DNA from: Calditrichaceae bacterium
Lineage (GTDB): Bacteria; Calditrichota; Calditrichia; Calditrichales; JBFXGD01
Reading direction: 5' to 3'
DNA: 44,042 nucleotides
Assembly: GCA_050178385.1 (NCBI GenBank)
Contig: JBFXGD010000011.1
Coordinates: 1-44,042 of the forward strand
Position 1 is the stretch's first letter; every line of letters begins with the position of its first letter. The position numbers were made by a program. Positions 3,001 to 9,000 of this stretch are shown piece after piece.

Positions 3001-6000
3001 GTAAAAACAACCTGCCTCGGATTCGTCATCTTTGTAGCGCCGATAGACTGAAATTTTGGTATAACGGCGCCTGTGTTGTCATGCGTCATTACATAAGCGG
3101 GTTGAATGGAAAGATAATCGCCGCTGTGAACTTCATGCCCATCATCAAGACCGACCGCAAAAATCTGTGCGATTTTTTCCACTAAATTTTGTGCCATAAA
3201 AGATCTCCTGTTTCAATAATCCGATATTAATATAAACAATCCAATTTTACATCTAAAATGCCTCATAGCGCAAGGAAATTGAGGGATATTTATACAGTAT
3301 AAAACATTCGCATAGTCCCGCTTACGGGTTGGCCGGGCATAATATTGATATTCTGTCATTTTTTTCGATAAAAATATTAGAATTTGTCTGTCAGACCGAT
3401 TAAATTAAAGAATACGTTTATTCTACATGCCGGATCAGAGAAATAATTGATATGAAAATTAAAATACGATGAATAATAATATGAGAGTAAAGGCCCGGGC
3501 CAATTCAAATATCGCCCTGATAAAATATTGGGGTAAAAAAAACATCGGCTTAAATCTTCCGGCGGTTGGTTCGATATCACTCACATTGAATGAATTATAT
3601 ACAGAAACTTCTGTCGAATTCAAATCCGATTTATCACAGGATCACCTGGTTCTGAACGGTCAATCTGCCTCGGCTCATGATACAAACAGAGCTAGCCGGT
3701 TCCTGGATATAATTCGAAAACGAAGCAATACGGAACTTTATGCGGAAGTGATAAGCTCGAATAATTTTCCGACTTCCGCCGGTCTGGCTTCTTCCGCCTC
3801 TGGATTTGCCTGTTTGGCACTGGCGGGATCAAGCGCAGCCGGGCTCGATCTGACACCTGTTCAGCTATCAGAACTGGCGCGCCTTGGCTCCGGTTCGGCG
3901 GCCAGATCAATATTCGGCGGATTTGTTGAAATGAAAAAAGGCCGGGAATCAGACGGTTCGGATTCTGTAGCTGAGCAGATCGCAATGAAGAATTTTTGGG
4001 ATTTGCGCCTCTTAATCGCGATTACATCAGAAGAAAAGAAAAAAACAGGTTCGACGGACGGAATGATTCTGACGCGAAATACATCTCCATATTACGGTTC
4101 GTGGATTGAAAGTTCTGAAAACGATCTGGTTGAAATGCGGGATGCTATAAAAAGACGTGACTTTGAAGCATTGGGGGAATTGACCGAATACAGCTGTTTG
4201 AAAATGCACGCGTTGGCCATGGCTGCAAGGCCTGGCTTAATATACTGGAATAATACTACTATAGATCTGATACATTTTATCAGGGATTTGCGTAAAAAAG
4301 GGGTCCCTGTGTATTTTACGATTGATGCGGGGCCTCAGGTTAAAGCCGTTTGCCTTCCTGAACATGTGGGGAAGGTGCGGGACGAAATCAGGAAAAATCG
4401 CGGAGTCCTGCGTGTTATAGAAACGGATCTTGGTGGCAACGCGGAGATACTCGGAGAAGAATATTGACCTTAAAGACTACTGCACCCGGTAAGATGATAC
4501 TTTTGGGGGAATATGCCGTCCTCGAAGGAGCTCCGGCTCTTGTCTGCGCCGTTGACAGATATGCGGTCATCAGAACCCAAAAAAGAGATGACAATCGTTT
4601 TTGCGTTGATTCATCTTCCATTCATGTAAAACCAGTTGATTTTGAAGTCACTGCCTCAGGTCTTATCGGTTTTGATTCAAACACCGATTCCGTATCAAGA
4701 AAAAAACTTAATTTTTTCAAAGTGACATTTGAGTTTGCCTGGCAGTACTTTAAAGCGCTCGGCATAAAAATACCTCCTTCTCACTTTTCAATGAATACAA
4801 ATTTATTTTATTCGCCGGATCTCACAAAAAAATATGGTTTTGGATCCAGCGCGGCAATGACGGTCGCGTTATTTTCAGGTTTATTCAGGCTTGCCGGGCT
4901 GTCTTTTGAAGAAGGGGAAGATAGGGCGAGATTATTTCGTTTAGCTTTAGGTGCGCACCGCAAGGCTCAGGGTAATTTGGGTAGCGGTATTGATATTGCC
5001 GCCAGTACATATGGCGGGATGCTTGTCTTTAAAATGTTACTCGACAAAGAAGCAAAACAGGTCGCTCCTCAGCCTGTTGATATATGCCAGGGACTTTATA
5101 TGACTCCGGTATGGACCGGCTCATCCGAATCGACCAGAAAAATGATTCGCAGTGTCAGTCAGCTGAAAAAAGAAAATCAGAACGTATATCATGATGTTAT
5201 TAATAAACTGACCGGGCTTTCTGAGCATGGCTGCCTCGCTTACAGAGAACATGATGTCGCTAAGTTTATGTCAATTGTTAGGGAATATTATGAAGTGCTC
5301 GCCTTTTTAGGAAATAAAAGCGATACGCCGATTATCTCCCCGGTTCATCAAAAATTGGCGGAATTAGTCGGAGCCGCCGGCGGGGTATATAAACCATCAG
5401 GCGCGGGCAGCGGTGATATTGGAATTGCATTTTCCGATAATCCGGAAAAAAAAGCGAATATTATAGAAAAAGTAAGGTTAGAAGGGTATCAAACGATTGA
5501 CATCGTGCCTGCTTCGGCGGGAGCAAGTTCAGCAATCTTGAATTAACATAAGTTTAGATAAGAGGATTAGCAAAATGGGGACTTCCAGAATTCCTAAATT
5601 TTATAAGTACTCTGTCCAGGAGCGATTAAGAATTTTACAGCAGAAAAAATATCTTAGTGAAGAAGATTATACTCTCTTGAGAAACGGAAACGGACTTTTG
5701 CGTCCTGAAGATTCCGATAAAATGGTGGAGAATGTCATCGGTGTATTTGGGTTACCGATGGGACTGGGTTTGAATTTTTTGATTAATAATAAAGACTATA
5801 TTATTCCCATGGTGGTTGAAGAGCCTTCGATTATAGCGGCAGTTAGTTCAGCCGCGAAAATTGTCCGTCAGAATGGTGGCTTTATCAGTGAGAGCAGCGA
5901 ATCTCTTCTTGTAGGTCAGATACAGGTGGTCGATATTCAGAATGTGACTAAAGCGCATAATGCGATTCTTCAAAATAAGGATGAAATTCTTAACCTTGCA

Positions 6001-9000
6001 AACAGTCTTCACCCTAATATGGTAGCAAGAGGCGGAGGCGCGAGAGATGTTGAAGTAAGAATATTGCCATTATCATCCCATGGAGGGGATATGATCATCG
6101 TACATCTTCTCGTCGACACACGGGACGCGATGGGGGCGAATCTGGTCAATAGTATGTGTGAGGGTGTTGCCTCGCTTATTGAAAAAATTACGGGGGGAAA
6201 GGTATTCCTGAGGATATTATCCAACCTGGCCGACAGATCGCTGGTACGGGCAAGATGCGTAGTGCCCGTCAAAAATATCGCGGGCAAAGGATATTCCGGT
6301 GAAGAAGTGCGTGATGGTATTATTCTGGCAAGTGAATTTGCAATCGTTGATCCCTACAGGGCCGCGACACACAACAAAGGTATAATGAACGGCATTGACC
6401 CGGTGGTGATCGCGACAGGTAATGACTGGCGCGCAATCGAGGCATCGGTCCACGCTTATGCGGCCCGCGGCAAAAGCTACACATCACTCACAAAGTGGGA
6501 ACAAAATGAGAATGGTGACCTTGTAGGGTCTATAGAAATACCCATAAGAGTTGGTATTGTCGGCGGTCCCCTGCAAAGTAATCCCACTGTCCCCATAGCG
6601 CATCATATTTTAAACATTAGTTCTGCGCGAGAGCTTGCGGAAGTTCTTGCCGCAGTCGGTTTGGCGCAAAATTTGGCTGCATTACGAGCGCTCGCGACGG
6701 AAGGTATTCAGCGAGGTCACATGAGTCTTCATGCCCGCAGTGTAGCGATTGCCGCCGGCGCGACTCCGGATGTGTTTGAAACGGTTGTTGAAAAATTAAT
6801 CGGATCCGGTGATATCAAGATCTGGAAAGCAAAGGAAATTATAGAAACCATTAAAAATTCCGAAGAACCGGGTCAGGCTGATATGGTTCTAAAACCGTCG
6901 GCTGAAAAATTACCGACAGGTCACGGCAAAATTATCTTACTCGGAGAACATGCCGTTGTTTACGGAAGTCATGCAATCGCCGCGCCTGTTCCTTTGGCCA
7001 TGCAGGCCCGGGTGGCTGATTCCGACAAGGATGGCGTTCATTTGATCATCCCCAGATGGGGAGTAGAAGAAAGACTGCAAAGAGGGGTTGATCATAAATA
7101 TTCTATCTTTAAATCACTAGATTTGATACTCAGCGAACTTGATCTGCATGAGAAAAATATGCAGATCGAAGTTTTTCCCCATGTACCCCGTGCTATGGGG
7201 TTAGGCGGTTCGGCCGCGCTTGCTGTCGCAATCATTCGAGCGCTTTCAGAGCAATTTAAAATTAATTTATCGGAGGAAGATGTAGCCAGACTTTCTTTTG
7301 AATCAGAGAAAATAGTACATGGGTCTGCTTCCGGAATAGACAATACCCTTGCCACCTATGGGAAGTTTATACTGTTTCAAAAAGGAAATCCGCCCAAAAT
7401 GGAAACAATAGAGACATCAAACCCGGTCAGGATTGTAATCGGTTTGACCTGGATTGAGAGTCTTACCGCGAGAATGGTCGCGAGAGTGAAAACAGCCTGG
7501 GAAAGAAACAAGGTACTTTACAATCATATTTTTAAAGAGATTGATGCTCTTGTACTTCAAGGAGTTGATGCTATAAAAAACAATGATCTTGAACATTTAG
7601 GTGATTTAATGAATATAAATCAGGGGTTGTTGAACGCGATTCAGGTTTCGGGAAGAGAGATTGAAGAGTTAGTGGATATCGCCAGGGCAAACGGCGCGCT
7701 TGGCGCGAAATTAACCGGCGGCGGGGGTGGGGGCGCCGTGATTGCGCTTTGTCCGGATAACGCGGAAAAAGTTGCGGGAGCCATAAAAAGCGCGGGTTAT
7801 CAGGCATTCATAACTGATATTAAATAATTGTCAGCAAAGGCTGTTTTTAGCATTATTTGAAGTGCGGTCAAAATCATAAAGTTATAATTTTAAAGGAATT
7901 AAAGGGGTAAAATGACAGTAAATGACAAAATTGTCTCTTTTGATGATGAAAAATTAATCCTGGTTGATGATTCCGACAATGAAATTGGTCATAAAAGTAA
8001 AGCGGAATGTCATGATGATCAGGGGATATTACATCGCGCTTTTTCAATTTTCATTTTTAATTCAAAGAGAGAACTTTTACTTCAGAAACGTGGCGCTGAA
8101 AAACGATTATGGCCTCTCTACTGGTCAAACAGCTGCTGCAGTCATCCCAGGGAAGGGGAGACGTATGATTTTGCCACTCAGCGAAGATTAAAGGAAGAAT
8201 TAGGCTTCGGGAGTGACTTATCCTATCTTTTTAAGTTCAAATATCATGCGTCTTTTGAAGATAAAGGTTCTGAATACGAGTTATGTTCGGTTTTTATCGG
8301 AAAATCAGATCAGAGGCCGGAAGTTAATCCGAATGAAATCGATGAATGGAAGTATATTCCGATTGACGAACTGGAAAAGCAGATGGAAAACAATCCGGAA
8401 TGGTTCACACCCTGGTTTAAGATGGAGTGGAAAAGGATAAAAAATGAACATTTCCGGGAAATAGAATCGTTATTTTAGTTTTACCGTTAAATTTGGATGG
8501 CGGGGTGTCACCCATTAATTTGGATGGGTAATTTACTCCGCCGTTTTTTTTATTAATTTTCACAAACGAAGGATCAAACCTTATGACAAACGCGAAGATA
8601 AGACTGAAGGATTTCCCTTCGACATTCTGGGTTGCCAACACCATGGAAATTTTTGAGAGAATGGCATGGTATGGATTCTTTGCTGTTTCATCACTATATA
8701 TTACCGGAAACGTCGGTGATGGTGGTCTTGGATTTAGTGATGAAGACCGTGGAGTCCTCCAGGGTGTGGTAACTTTCTTTCTGTATCTGTTCCCTGTGGT
8801 GACAGGAGCGCTGGCTGACCGTTACGGCTTCAGAAAGATGCTCTTCTCGGCATTTGTCATATTGGTTCCATCTTACTACTTTCTTGGATATTTTAAAACT
8901 TTCCCGACATTCTTTTTAGCTTTTATGTTTGTGGCGCTCGGGGCGGCCATGTTTAAACCGGTGATCATCGGAACCGTTTCAAAGACAACCAGTCCGAGAA

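What a model noticed while it worked through the whole genome (the two positions that open the first line are those of the whole stretch)
5575..7827. Natural fusion of class II HMG-CoA reductase with mevalonate kinase, the only mevalonate kinase of a mevalonate-only gen [...]
g00446 (750 aa) is a bifunctional enzyme: residues 1-429 are a class II (NAD-type) HMG-CoA reductase and residues ~446-750 a complete mevalonate kinase, two consecutive steps of the mevalonate pathway on one chain. It sits in the operon diphosphomevalonate decarboxylase (g00444) - phosphomevalonate kinase (g00445) - fusion - IPP isomerase (g00447). No other mevalonate kinase and no Dxs/Dxr/IspG/IspH of the MEP pathway are in the gene tables, so all isoprenoids depend on it. 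Databases name it only 'HMG-CoA reductase, degradative'.
Evidence so far: NCBIfam on the halves: TIGR00532 HMG_CoA_R_NAD 445 bits (cut 260) for 1-429; TIGR00549 mevalonate kinase 257 bits (cut 163) for 430-750; g00445 is closest to TIGR01220 phosphomevalonate kinase (140 bits, below cut 166). Swiss-Prot: 53% to Archaeoglobus HmgA over 3-428 and 36% to Pyrococcus Mvk over 452-749; table search for MEP genes finds only YgbB-like g00573 and an IspD-fold GlmU-like g03350. All 120 listed database homologues (67-97% identity, 99-100% coverage, 746-769 aa; Calditrichota incl. Caldithrix abyssi, KSB1) carry PF00368+PF00288+PF08544 and every source name says only HMG-CoA reductase.
(Added by a program. 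Inside this text positions count along the whole contig: contig position 1 is position 1 of the stretch shown here. "Call 12" and the like, gene names such as g00115 and contig names such as C1 are that model's own, and its searches are not shown. The text may have been shortened before it was handed on; [...] marks where a part breaks off. The agent that wrote the report below was given it as the finding of a first reader that could run no searches.)

Follow-up and report, generated by a model that had tools for sequence, protein, structure and literature searches.

The report
Fused HMG-CoA reductase–mevalonate kinase gene
One gene in this bacterium encodes two consecutive enzymes of the mevalonate route to isoprenoid lipids as a single protein; the fusion is real and found in many bacterial groups, is labelled in databases by its first half only, and I found no study of it.

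Summary
Window 5575-7827 (+) is one uninterrupted 750-aa frame. Residues 1-430 are a complete class II HMG-CoA reductase (HMGR). Residues 431-445 are a disordered linker. Residues 446-750 are a complete mevalonate kinase (MVK). All catalytic residues are conserved in both halves. The gene sits in an operon ordered diphosphomevalonate decarboxylase, phosphomevalonate-kinase-like gene, fusion, type-1 IPP isomerase.

It is the genome's only HMGR and only MVK above the family cut-off. Dxr, IspG and IspH are absent from this 94%-complete genome and from 5 relatives, four of them single-contig, so the mevalonate-only reading is well supported.

- 68 of 86 genomes of the phylum carry it full-length.
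- 46 of 80 loci fetched from other genomes carry it in one frame. Their labels include Gammaproteobacteria, Acidobacteriota, Myxococcota, Balneolaceae and Actinomycetota.
- Variants exist: HMGR-MVK-isomerase triple fusions and kinase-HMGR reversed forms.

The halves give matching local trees, and the four-gene order recurs across phyla, which suggests spread of the cassette by transfer.

Eight literature searches found no description. This scan has already reported the same fusion in at least 20 other genomes. Activity, cofactor preference and any channelling are untested. It is a new variant of a known kind, of moderate interest.

The parts
3469..4467 (+). Diphosphomevalonate decarboxylase (MVD), first gene of the operon
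   Evidence: TIGR01240 315.8 bits against a cut-off of 171. Pfam MVD-like_N and MDD_C. Best solved relatives are diphosphomevalonate decarboxylases, 2hk2 at E 1e-74.
4464..5546 (+). GHMP kinase, probable phosphomevalonate kinase (PMK); TTG start overlaps the MVD stop by 4 bases
   Evidence: TIGR01220 139.9 bits, below the cut-off of 165.7. TIGR00549 scores lower, 107 bits. Best solved relative is Listeria Lin0012 (3k17) at E 2.5e-25. A homologous gene lies upstream of the fusion in most fusion loci.
5575..7827 (+). HMGR-MVK fusion gene, 750 aa plus stop
   Evidence: Single open frame. Pfam and NCBIfam matches. Structure model with mean pLDDT 89.
5575..6864 (+). Class II HMG-CoA reductase domain, residues 1-430, including the C-terminal flap helices that carry His382
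   Evidence: TIGR00532 443 bits. Aligns to P. mevalonii HMGR (1qax) over residues 4-422 at E 1e-128. Model-to-structure TM-score normalised to the target is 0.95 over 426 columns. E83, K268 and D284 are invariant in 18 of 18 fusion sequences and H382 in 17 of 18. All four are invariant in the 68 rows of A2.
6865..6909 (+). Inter-domain linker, residues 431-445
   Evidence: pLDDT is below 50 for residues 430-443. Length and sequence vary among the 18 aligned fusions (alignment columns about 465-525).
6910..7824 (+). Mevalonate kinase domain, residues 446-750
   Evidence: TIGR00549 254 bits against a cut-off of 163. Aligns to Leishmania (2hfs) and Methanosarcina (4hac, 6mde) MVK at E 1e-39 to 1e-41. 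TM-score normalised to the target is 0.80-0.86. K452, E458, H459, G544, S546, E578, S586, D589, K712, G715 and G719 are invariant in 68 rows.
7912..8478 (+). Type-1 isopentenyl-diphosphate isomerase (Nudix fold), last gene of the operon
   Evidence: TIGR02150 161 bits (cut-off 106) and NF002995 163 bits (cut-off 127). The same gene follows the fusion in 28 of 46 fusion loci that keep the full gene order. It is fused to the C-terminus in P0128 and P0130.

Best explanation
The gene encodes a bifunctional biosynthetic enzyme. The N-terminal class II HMG-CoA reductase reduces HMG-CoA to mevalonate with two NAD(P)H. The C-terminal GHMP-family mevalonate kinase then phosphorylates mevalonate to mevalonate 5-phosphate with ATP.

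The two domains fold independently and are tied by a disordered linker of about 15 residues. That linker starts right after the reductase's mobile C-terminal flap. With the upstream decarboxylase and PMK-like kinase, the downstream isomerase, and an archaeal-type HMG-CoA synthase and thiolase elsewhere in the genome, the fusion completes a classical mevalonate pathway. That pathway is the organism's only route to IPP and DMAPP.

Shown here: the single frame, the integrity and conservation of both catalytic sites, single-copy status, absence of the key MEP genes, and the wide conservation of the fusion and its operon.

Inferred: both activities, the biosynthetic direction, and the benefit of the fusion. 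I take that benefit to be fixed 1:1 dosage and co-localisation of two consecutive steps. A rigid channelling interface is not supported by anything I have.
For: Single frame and domain scores.

Reductase residues, aligned to P. mevalonii HMGR: E83, K268, D284 and H382. They are invariant across 68 fusion sequences of 33-97% identity.

Kinase motifs, aligned to solved MVKs: GKIILLGEH, GLGGSAA, SGIDNT and KLTGGGGGG. Their key residues are invariant.

Model: mean pLDDT 89 with a disordered 430-443. pTM is only 0.60, which fits two well-folded domains with no fixed mutual orientation. Each half superposes on its solved family, and no PDB chain covers both halves; the best TM-score normalised to the query is 0.55.

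Own genome:
- One PF00368 locus.
- TIGR00549 is over its cut-off only in the fusion.
- The third GHMP kinase, on contig C173, is best matched by heptose-7-phosphate kinase HddA and sits beside a 194-aa ORF that I read by eye as a phosphoheptose-isomerase-type (SIS) protein, not scanned.
- Dxr, IspG and IspH give 0 matches.
- Archaeal-type HMG-CoA synthase (TIGR00748 539 bits, cut-off 353) is followed by a thiolase.

Relatives: IspH, IspG and Dxr are found in 0 of 5 genomes, four of them single-contig.

Conservation:
- 68 of 86 genomes of the phylum carry a full-length uninterrupted copy. Another 12 carry pieces, several of which start at the first bases of their contig.
- 46 of 80 loci from other genomes carry both halves in one frame.
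- The order MVD, PMK, fusion, IDI is kept in 28 of those 46.
Against: - No activity of either half has been measured here, and I found none in any paper.
- The TIGR00532 model name says 'degradative'.
- The PMK-like neighbour scores below its family cut-off, so the step after the fusion is assigned less firmly.
- One fusion relative, P0138, has a degenerate reductase half: PF00368 at only 167 bits, with the His382 position and the DAMGAN motif changed. Loss of one activity therefore can occur in this architecture.
- The genome is a 320-contig, 94%-complete assembly.
Confidence: 0.85

Rival explanations
1. The fusion is more than a tether. The two dimer-forming domains build a defined higher-order assembly that hands mevalonate directly from the reductase site to the kinase site (substrate channelling). 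This would be a sub-mechanism of the best explanation, not an alternative to bifunctionality.
For: - The two steps are consecutive.
- The kinase hangs from the flap that closes the reductase active site.
- Further fusions in the same direction exist: HMGR-MVK-isomerase in P0128 and P0130, and a PMK-like kinase fused to HMGR in P0156, P0164 and P0184.
- Both parent families are oligomers in solved structures. That point is recalled, not tested here.
Against: - The linker is disordered and varies in length, from almost none to about 60 residues.
- pTM of 0.60 shows no confident inter-domain packing.
- Reversed-order MVK-HMGR (P0150) and free-standing MVKs nested among fused ones show that the geometry is not constrained.
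- Mevalonate is a small soluble intermediate.
Confidence: 0.2
2. The reductase half works in the oxidative (degradative) direction as in Pseudomonas mevalonii, and the protein serves mevalonate catabolism or salvage.
For: The best NCBIfam model is named 'HMG-CoA reductase, degradative'. The closest solved structures are the P. mevalonii and Delftia enzymes.
Against: - It is fused to mevalonate kinase, which would compete for mevalonate.
- It sits with the decarboxylase, the PMK-like kinase and the IPP isomerase.
- The genome has an HMG-CoA synthase and no Dxr, IspG or IspH, so a biosynthetic HMGR is required and this is the only copy.
- I did not search for an HMG-CoA lyase.
Confidence: 0.04
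3. One half is a catalytically dead regulatory or scaffold domain, and the real enzyme for that step is an unrecognised protein.
For: P0138 shows that a reductase half can decay within this architecture.
Against: In this protein and in 68 of 68 aligned relatives all catalytic residues of both halves are intact. No other HMGR, and no other MVK above cut-off, exists in the genome.
Confidence: 0.04
4. The long ORF is an artefact: an assembly chimera, or a sequencing error that removed a stop codon between two genes.
For: The window comes from a fragmented metagenome-type assembly of 320 contigs.
Against: The same junction is in frame in 68 genomes of the phylum, among them single-contig genomes G006, G030, G064 and G082. 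It is also in frame in cultured strains by record title or source name: Caldithrix abyssi (P0024) and Cryobacterium psychrotolerans CGMCC 1.5382 (L084).
Confidence: 0.01

Closest known systems
MvaE of Enterococcus faecalis (acetoacetyl-CoA thiolase fused to class II HMG-CoA reductase). The identity of this protein is recalled. Its HMGR part is solved as 7m1z/7m3h.
   Same: A natural bifunctional mevalonate-pathway protein built on a class II HMGR. The HMGR parts are homologous: 41% identity, E about 1e-91. A thiolase-HMGR representative, P0207, appeared in my own search.
   Different: In MvaE the partner is the thiolase, it sits N-terminal to HMGR, and the two steps are not consecutive because HMG-CoA synthase lies between them. 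Here the partner is the next enzyme in the pathway, mevalonate kinase, attached to the C-terminus after the flap domain.
Free-standing class II HMG-CoA reductases (Pseudomonas mevalonii 1qax, Delftia acidovorans 6dio, Burkholderia cenocepacia 6p7k)
   Same: 49-53% identity over the whole 425-430 residues. Same fold including the flap, with TM-score normalised to the target of 0.95-0.98. Same catalytic Glu, Lys, Asp and His.
   Different: Those enzymes end at about residue 428. This one continues into a linker and a kinase. Asp146 of the P. mevalonii and Delftia enzymes is His146 here. The context is biosynthetic rather than catabolic.
Free-standing mevalonate kinases (Leishmania major 2hfs, Methanosarcina mazei 4hac/6mde, Staphylococcus aureus 2x7i)
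   Same: Full-length alignment at 30-33% identity, with GHMP motifs I-III and the catalytic Lys and Asp in place.
   Different: This kinase has no N-terminus of its own. It is expressed as the C-terminal half of an 80-kDa chain. Feedback regulation is unknown.
Adjacent but separate hmgr-mvk genes of halophilic Bacillaceae (Virgibacillus, Oceanobacillus, Paucisalibacillus; L051, L053, L054, L057)
   Same: HMGR is immediately followed by MVK on the same strand, and the two frames overlap.
   Different: They are two genes. The operon order is HMGR, MVK, MVD, PMK. Their MVK is only 25-28% identical to the fusion's kinase half, and their HMGR lies outside the main fusion clade. They are not the direct precursor.

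Membership tests
Class II HMG-CoA reductase (TIGR00532 / PF00368) | Family profile score above the curated cut-off over the full domain | tested here: met
   TIGR00532 443 bits against 260. PF00368 379 bits against 27, covering profile positions 1-368 of 368. The class I models score far below their cut-offs: TIGR00533 at 44.8 against 442.
Class II HMG-CoA reductase (TIGR00532 / PF00368) | Catalytic Glu83, Lys267, Asp283 and His381 (P. mevalonii numbering, recalled) | tested here: met
   E83, K268, D284 and H382 align to those positions of 1qax. They are invariant in 68 fusion sequences.
Class II HMG-CoA reductase (TIGR00532 / PF00368) | Fold including the C-terminal flap domain | tested here: met
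   The model superposes on PmHMGR 9dcp over 426 columns, with TM-score normalised to the target of 0.95 and rmsd 2.0. pLDDT is 71-86 in residues 380-430.
Class II HMG-CoA reductase, 'NAD-dependent, degradative' subtype | Asp146, which I recall confers NAD preference in P. mevalonii HMGR | tested here: not met
   The aligned residue is His146, and Pro147 is nearly invariant in the fusion family. Cofactor preference is therefore open. The role of Asp146 is recalled, not taken from a call.
Mevalonate kinase (TIGR00549, GHMP superfamily) | Family profile score above the curated cut-off | tested here: met
   254 bits on the whole protein and 257 bits in the genome scan, against a cut-off of 163, covering profile positions 2-276 of 276.
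Mevalonate kinase (TIGR00549, GHMP superfamily) | GHMP motifs I-III with the catalytic Lys (motif I) and Asp base (roles recalled) | tested here: met
   GKIILLGEH (K452), GLGGSAA (S546), SGIDNT (D589) and KLTGGGGGG (K712) align to solved MVKs. These residues are invariant in 68 rows.
Mevalonate kinase (TIGR00549, GHMP superfamily) | Enzyme activity on mevalonate | not testable with these tools
   Needs an enzyme assay.
Classical (eukaryote-type) mevalonate pathway operon | All of HMGS, HMGR, MVK, PMK, MVD and IDI present | tested here: inconclusive
   HMGS, HMGR, MVK, MVD and IDI pass their cut-offs. The PMK candidate scores 139.9 against a cut-off of 165.7, so it is probable but not confirmed. 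I did not search for isopentenyl phosphate kinase, which the alternative route would need.
MvaE-type thiolase/HMGR bifunctional proteins | Thiolase domain fused N-terminal to HMGR | tested here: not met
   P0001 has no thiolase domain. Its partner is a C-terminal GHMP kinase. It works like MvaE only in being a bifunctional mevalonate-pathway fusion, and it is not a member.

The most novel reading that the evidence does not exclude
The four-gene block MVD, PMK, HMGR-MVK, IDI is a self-contained, horizontally mobile mevalonate cassette. It has moved between at least half a dozen bacterial phyla, and in the ancestor of Calditrichota it displaced the MEP pathway altogether. The series of fusions seen around it (HMGR-MVK; HMGR-MVK-IDI; PMK-like kinase-HMGR; MVK-HMGR) records repeated selection for physically coupling mevalonate-pathway steps into one assembly that channels intermediates.
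Probability: 0.3. Interest if true: 0.65.

Novelty: new variant of a known kind. Interest (0 to 1): 0.45.

Why it matters
Annotation. Hundreds of database entries are named after the reductase half only. Pathway reconstructions that rely on product names will therefore wrongly report mevalonate kinase as missing in Calditrichota, many Gammaproteobacteria, Acidobacteriota and other groups.

Evolution. A conserved cassette that appears under labels from many phyla, in a phylum that lacks the MEP route, bears on how bacteria acquired the mevalonate pathway.

Enzymology and engineering. This is a natural one-chain catalyst for two consecutive steps, including the flux-controlling reductase. Thermophilic and psychrotolerant versions exist in cultured strains (Caldithrix abyssi, Cryobacterium psychrotolerans). 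It offers a ready test case for whether tethering improves flux, and a compact part for engineered isoprenoid pathways.

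Tried and rejected
- Domain-domain binding. Complex prediction on residues 1-430 against 446-750, with alignment A2, returned 'no answer' (score 0.00 against a mark of 0.32, controls not run). 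This is evidence neither for nor against an interface.
- Expression. No RNA holder was listed. Four DNA-type runs hold the stretch or part of it. I did not lay reads.
- Promoters and terminators, 3100-8700. 11 promoter-like sites against 12.9 expected, and 3 terminator-like sites against 4.9 expected. Nothing above chance, so operon boundaries rest on gene spacing only.
- Bacillaceae adjacent hmgr-mvk genes as the precursor of the fusion. Rejected: their MVK is only 25-28% identical, the operon order differs, and their HMGR lies outside the main fusion clade.
- Short MVK-only database hits as evidence for a split form. Most sit on contigs of 1-4 kb and are named HMG-CoA reductase, so they are fragments of the fusion. 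Of the 8 short hits I took from contigs of 36 kb or more, P0366 starts with 47 residues of HMGR tail, so it is a cut fusion. The other seven nest inside the fused clade. Four of those seven (P0311, P0357, P0389, P0402) carry 43-65 extra N-terminal residues. They look like frameshifted or re-split copies, not ancestors.
- Earlier scan notes near this window: none.
- Literature. Eight searches found no description of the fusion. In PMC6107057 I read only the passages the term search returned. It says that proteins fused to a target enzyme were trimmed before tree building, and it holds no 'fusion', 'bifunctional' or 'Caldithrix'. PMC3916229 and PMC4022621 mention Caldithrix abyssi for unrelated genes. 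Subscription journals and bioRxiv supplements were not searchable.

Full report
1. OBSERVATION

Window 5575-7827 (+) is one ATG-started open frame of 750 codons with no internal stop.
- Pfam places HMG-CoA_red at residues 13-387 (379 bits), GHMP_kinases_N at 515-595 and GHMP_kinases_C at 665-742.
- NCBIfam gives TIGR00532 at 443 bits (cut-off 260) over 2-387 and TIGR00549 mevalonate kinase at 254 bits (cut-off 163) over 450-725.

- 3469-4467: diphosphomevalonate decarboxylase, TIGR01240 316 bits.
- 4464-5546: a GHMP kinase that overlaps the decarboxylase gene by four bases. Its best model is phosphomevalonate kinase TIGR01220, at 139.9 bits against a cut-off of 165.7.
- 7912-8478: a type-1 IPP isomerase, TIGR02150 161 bits.

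A divergent homoaconitase gene lies upstream (1230-3197, minus strand) and a transporter gene lies downstream (8583-10127). A simple promoter and terminator scan found nothing above chance.

2. BOTH HALVES ARE INTACT ENZYMES

Reductase half. It aligns end to end with P. mevalonii HMGR (1qax, residues 5-421, E 1e-128) and Delftia HMGR (6dio). Following the gaps in that alignment, E83, K268, D284 and H382 sit on the residues I recall as the catalytic Glu83, Lys267, Asp283 and His381 of the Pseudomonas enzyme.

Kinase half. It aligns with Leishmania and Methanosarcina mevalonate kinases (E 1e-39 to 1e-41). It keeps the three GHMP motifs: GKIILLGEH, GLGGSAA and KLTGGGGGG. It also keeps the SGIDNT aspartate.

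Conservation in 18 diverse fusion proteins (A1, 33-75% identity to the query):
- E83, K268, D284, K452, E458, H459, S546, E578, D589 and K712 are invariant.
- H382 is present in 17 of 18.
- The exception, P0138, has a visibly degenerate reductase half (PF00368 at only 167 bits).

Conservation in a larger alignment (A2, 68 rows) shows all of these residues invariant. I chose the rows of A2 myself:
- the query plus 17 of the other 119 homologues;
- 15 of the representatives;
- 35 of the 46 fusion loci.
P0138, P0133, P0134 and P0142 were left out.

Structure model. An AlphaFold2 model on A2 has mean pLDDT 89 and pTM 0.60. Only residues 430-443 fall below pLDDT 50. So there are two confidently folded domains, a disordered linker, and no confident mutual orientation.

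Fold search. The N-terminal half falls on PmHMGR, flap included (TM-score normalised to the target 0.95 over 426 columns). The C-terminal half falls on mevalonate kinases (0.80-0.86). No solved chain covers both halves; the best TM-score normalised to the query is 0.55.

Cofactor. Position 146 is Asp in the P. mevalonii and Delftia enzymes. As I recall, that Asp sets NAD preference. It is His here. 'NAD-type' and 'degradative' are therefore only the name of the model, not a finding.

3. ROLE IN THE GENOME

The assembly has 3.89 Mb in 320 contigs and is 94.2% complete.
- PF00368 occurs once.
- TIGR00549 is above its cut-off only in the fusion. The other matches are the PMK-like neighbour (107 bits), the decarboxylase (21 bits) and a kinase on contig C173 (90 bits).
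- The C173 kinase is best matched by heptose-7-phosphate kinase HddA. It sits beside a 194-aa ORF that I read by eye as a phosphoheptose-isomerase-type (SIS) protein; I did not scan it.
- Dxr, IspG and IspH give no match, while the same searches hit 9 of 14 control genomes.
- The best Dxs match is 175 bits against a cut-off of 466.

To meet the completeness caveat I searched five relatives: the same-genus genome G038 and the single-contig genomes G006, G030, G064 and G082. IspH, IspG and Dxr are found in 0 of 5 each.

The first two pathway steps are covered on contig C206 by an archaeal-type HMG-CoA synthase (TIGR00748 539 bits, cut-off 353). It is followed by a thiolase that the contig end cuts.

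The mevalonate-only reading is therefore well supported, and this gene supplies both its reductase and its first kinase.

4. DISTRIBUTION

Within the phylum, 80 of 86 genomes match.
- 68 carry a full-length copy (query about 1-750, no stops), including four single-contig genomes.
- The other 12 carry only pieces. Five of those pieces cross the junction. Several start at the first bases of their contig. I did not check contig lengths for the rest.
- The 6 genomes without a match are 62-92% complete.
- No genome showed two separate complete genes.

Outside the phylum:
- A search of 1.84 billion cluster representatives returned full-length fusion architectures down to 34% identity.
- Source names for some of them are Desulfobacterales, Pseudomonadota and Woeseiaceae.
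- A scan of one genome per species returned 80 loci. I built HMMs of each half from A1 and applied them to all plus-strand open frames.
   - 46 of 80 loci have both halves in one frame. Three of these are cut by a contig end.
   - 4 of 80 have adjacent separate genes (Virgibacillus twice, Oceanobacillus, Paucisalibacillus).
   - 30 of 80 have HMGR alone (Chloroflexota, Bathyarchaeia, Polyangiales, a Rhizobium, Lujinxingia, and one short Oceanobacillus-labelled contig).

Record titles of the 46 fused loci include:
- Calditrichaceae;
- Ca. Sulfomarinibacteraceae, Acidobacteria and Thermoanaerobaculia;
- Methylomirabilota;
- many Gammaproteobacteria (Nevskia, Rhodanobacteraceae, Chiayiivirga, Salinisphaera, Woeseiaceae, Pseudomonadales);
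- Rhodospirillaceae, Myxococcales, Balneolaceae and Nakamurella;
- the isolate Cryobacterium psychrotolerans CGMCC 1.5382.

Most of these are MAG bins, and some labels look unreliable. One 'Oceanobacillus' MAG groups with Anaerolinea. Phylum counts should be read loosely. Caldithrix abyssi (P0024) and Cryobacterium are cultured anchors.

5. EVOLUTION (ROUGH)

Reductase-half tree. This is a FastTree run of 125 rows, rooted at the midpoint, with long branches flagged.
- One side of a branch with SH-like support 98 holds 63 rows. Sixty are fused and three are labelled solo.
- One of those three, L021, is really a fusion cut by the contig end.
- Five fused rows (P0140, P0144, P0145, P0149, P0260) and the reversed MVK-HMGR P0150 fall among 56 solo rows on the other side.
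- Most fusions are thus compatible with one origin, and a few may be independent. I did not run an AU test.

Kinase-half tree (75 rows). It gives the Calditrichota sequences largely the same neighbours as the reductase tree: the unnamed L014, Balneolaceae, an Acidobacteria MAG, and the Myxococcales/Salinisphaera/Cryobacterium group. The halves have therefore travelled together.

Gene order. A tblastn of the window's four proteins against the 46 fused loci finds the full order MVD, PMK-like, fusion, IDI in 28. Most of the rest are cut by contig ends or lack the isomerase. Cassette-level horizontal transfer is the simplest reading.

The class II reductase is a frequent fusion partner in general. 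The Pfam scan of 60 long representatives also shows:
- HMGR-MVK-Nudix isomerase (P0128, 952 aa; P0130, 928 aa);
- GHMP kinase-HMGR (P0150, P0156, P0164, P0184);
- thiolase-HMGR (P0207);
- FMN-type isomerase-HMGR (P0223, P0259);
- HMGR-polyprenyl synthase with or without squalene/phytoene synthase (P0163, P0178, P0179);
- HMGR-terpene synthase (P0171);
- HMGR-cyclase-like (P0168).

6. MECHANISM

The best reading is a bifunctional biosynthetic enzyme: HMG-CoA to mevalonate to mevalonate 5-phosphate.
- Shown: architecture, intact sites, single-copy status, pathway context and conservation.
- Inferred: both activities, their direction, and the benefit of the fusion. I take the benefit to be fixed stoichiometry and proximity.

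A defined channelling interface is not supported by anything I have. The linker is disordered and varies in length. Reversed and re-split forms exist. The complex prediction gave no answer and counts for nothing either way.

7. KNOWN OR NEW

The closest known system is Enterococcus MvaE (thiolase-HMGR). It shares the idea of a bifunctional mevalonate-pathway protein but not the partner, the order, or the fact that the steps are consecutive.

Eight full-text searches found no paper describing an HMGR-MVK fusion. The one evolutionary study I opened (PMC6107057, passages only) merely says that fused partners were trimmed. Subscription literature could not be searched.

This scan has already reported the same fusion in at least 20 other genomes, mostly Gammaproteobacteria, with the same conclusion. 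Those are unchecked AI notes and not independent evidence, but they show that this window is one more instance.

What this window adds:
- phylum-wide conservation in Calditrichota;
- the tested absence of the MEP pathway, including in closed genomes;
- the triple and reversed fusions;
- the matching local trees of the two halves.

8. VERDICT

It is a new variant of a known kind: a natural, apparently uncharacterised bifunctional mevalonate-pathway enzyme that is common in public data and under-annotated. Interest is 0.45.

Noticed in passing
P0128 (952 aa) and P0130 (928 aa): Triple fusions of HMGR, MVK and a Nudix-type IPP isomerase on one chain. Source names say Desulfobacterales and Pseudomonadota MAGs. 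The isomerase gene that follows the fusion in this window has been fused on in those lineages.
   Followed up: partly
P0150, P0156, P0164 and P0184: Reversed architectures. P0150 is MVK-HMGR, with 246 bits to my kinase-half HMM. P0156, P0164 and P0184 have a GHMP kinase scoring only 40-63 bits against that HMM, which looks PMK-like, fused in front of HMGR.
   Followed up: partly
P0163, P0167, P0168, P0171, P0178, P0179, P0189, P0223, P0242 and P0259: Class II HMGR fused to downstream isoprenoid enzymes: polyprenyl synthase, squalene/phytoene synthase, terpene synthase, a cyclase-like domain, a DMAT-type prenyltransferase, and an FMN-type isomerase. There is also one fusion to DAHP synthase. 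Proteins reach 1453 aa.
   Followed up: no
P0138 (763 aa): An HMGR-MVK fusion whose reductase half looks degenerate. PF00368 scores only 167 bits. The His382 position and the DAMGAN motif are changed, while the kinase half is intact.
   Followed up: no
Own genome, contig C206, locus L008 1447-2544 and 2587-3348: The pathway's first steps are encoded by an archaeal-type HMG-CoA synthase (TIGR00748 539 bits). It is followed by a thiolase whose best named model is an archaeal-type acetyl-CoA acetyltransferase; the contig end cuts it. This is a bacterial genome using the archaeal-type pair.
   Followed up: partly
window 1230-3197 (-): A 655-aa single-chain homoaconitase, with large and small subunit domains fused. 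TIGR00139 scores 876 bits against a cut-off of 530. It is divergently placed upstream of the mevalonate operon.
   Followed up: no
L038:1402-4374 (Thermoanaerobaculia MAG): The open frame holding the fusion is 990 aa long. About 240 residues lie upstream of the reductase domain. This may be a further N-terminal domain, or merely an open frame before the true start.
   Followed up: no
window 24175-32739 (+): A 1941-aa protein with a Big_5 Ig-like domain and a type-IX-secretion C-terminal sorting tail. Two overlapping ORFs of 226 and 689 aa follow it, with no Pfam match at E 1e-5.
   Followed up: no
window 14377-20449 (-), 21467-24175 (+) and 34466-41508 (+): A dense set of PAS-rich hybrid histidine kinases (758, 1048 and 1318 aa), a HAMP kinase, a 902-aa ORF with only a weak HisKA match, and a sigma-54 activator. 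Unlike earlier scan notes on Gammaproteobacteria, no hopanoid gene was seen among the ORFs of 200 aa or more that I scanned.
   Followed up: no
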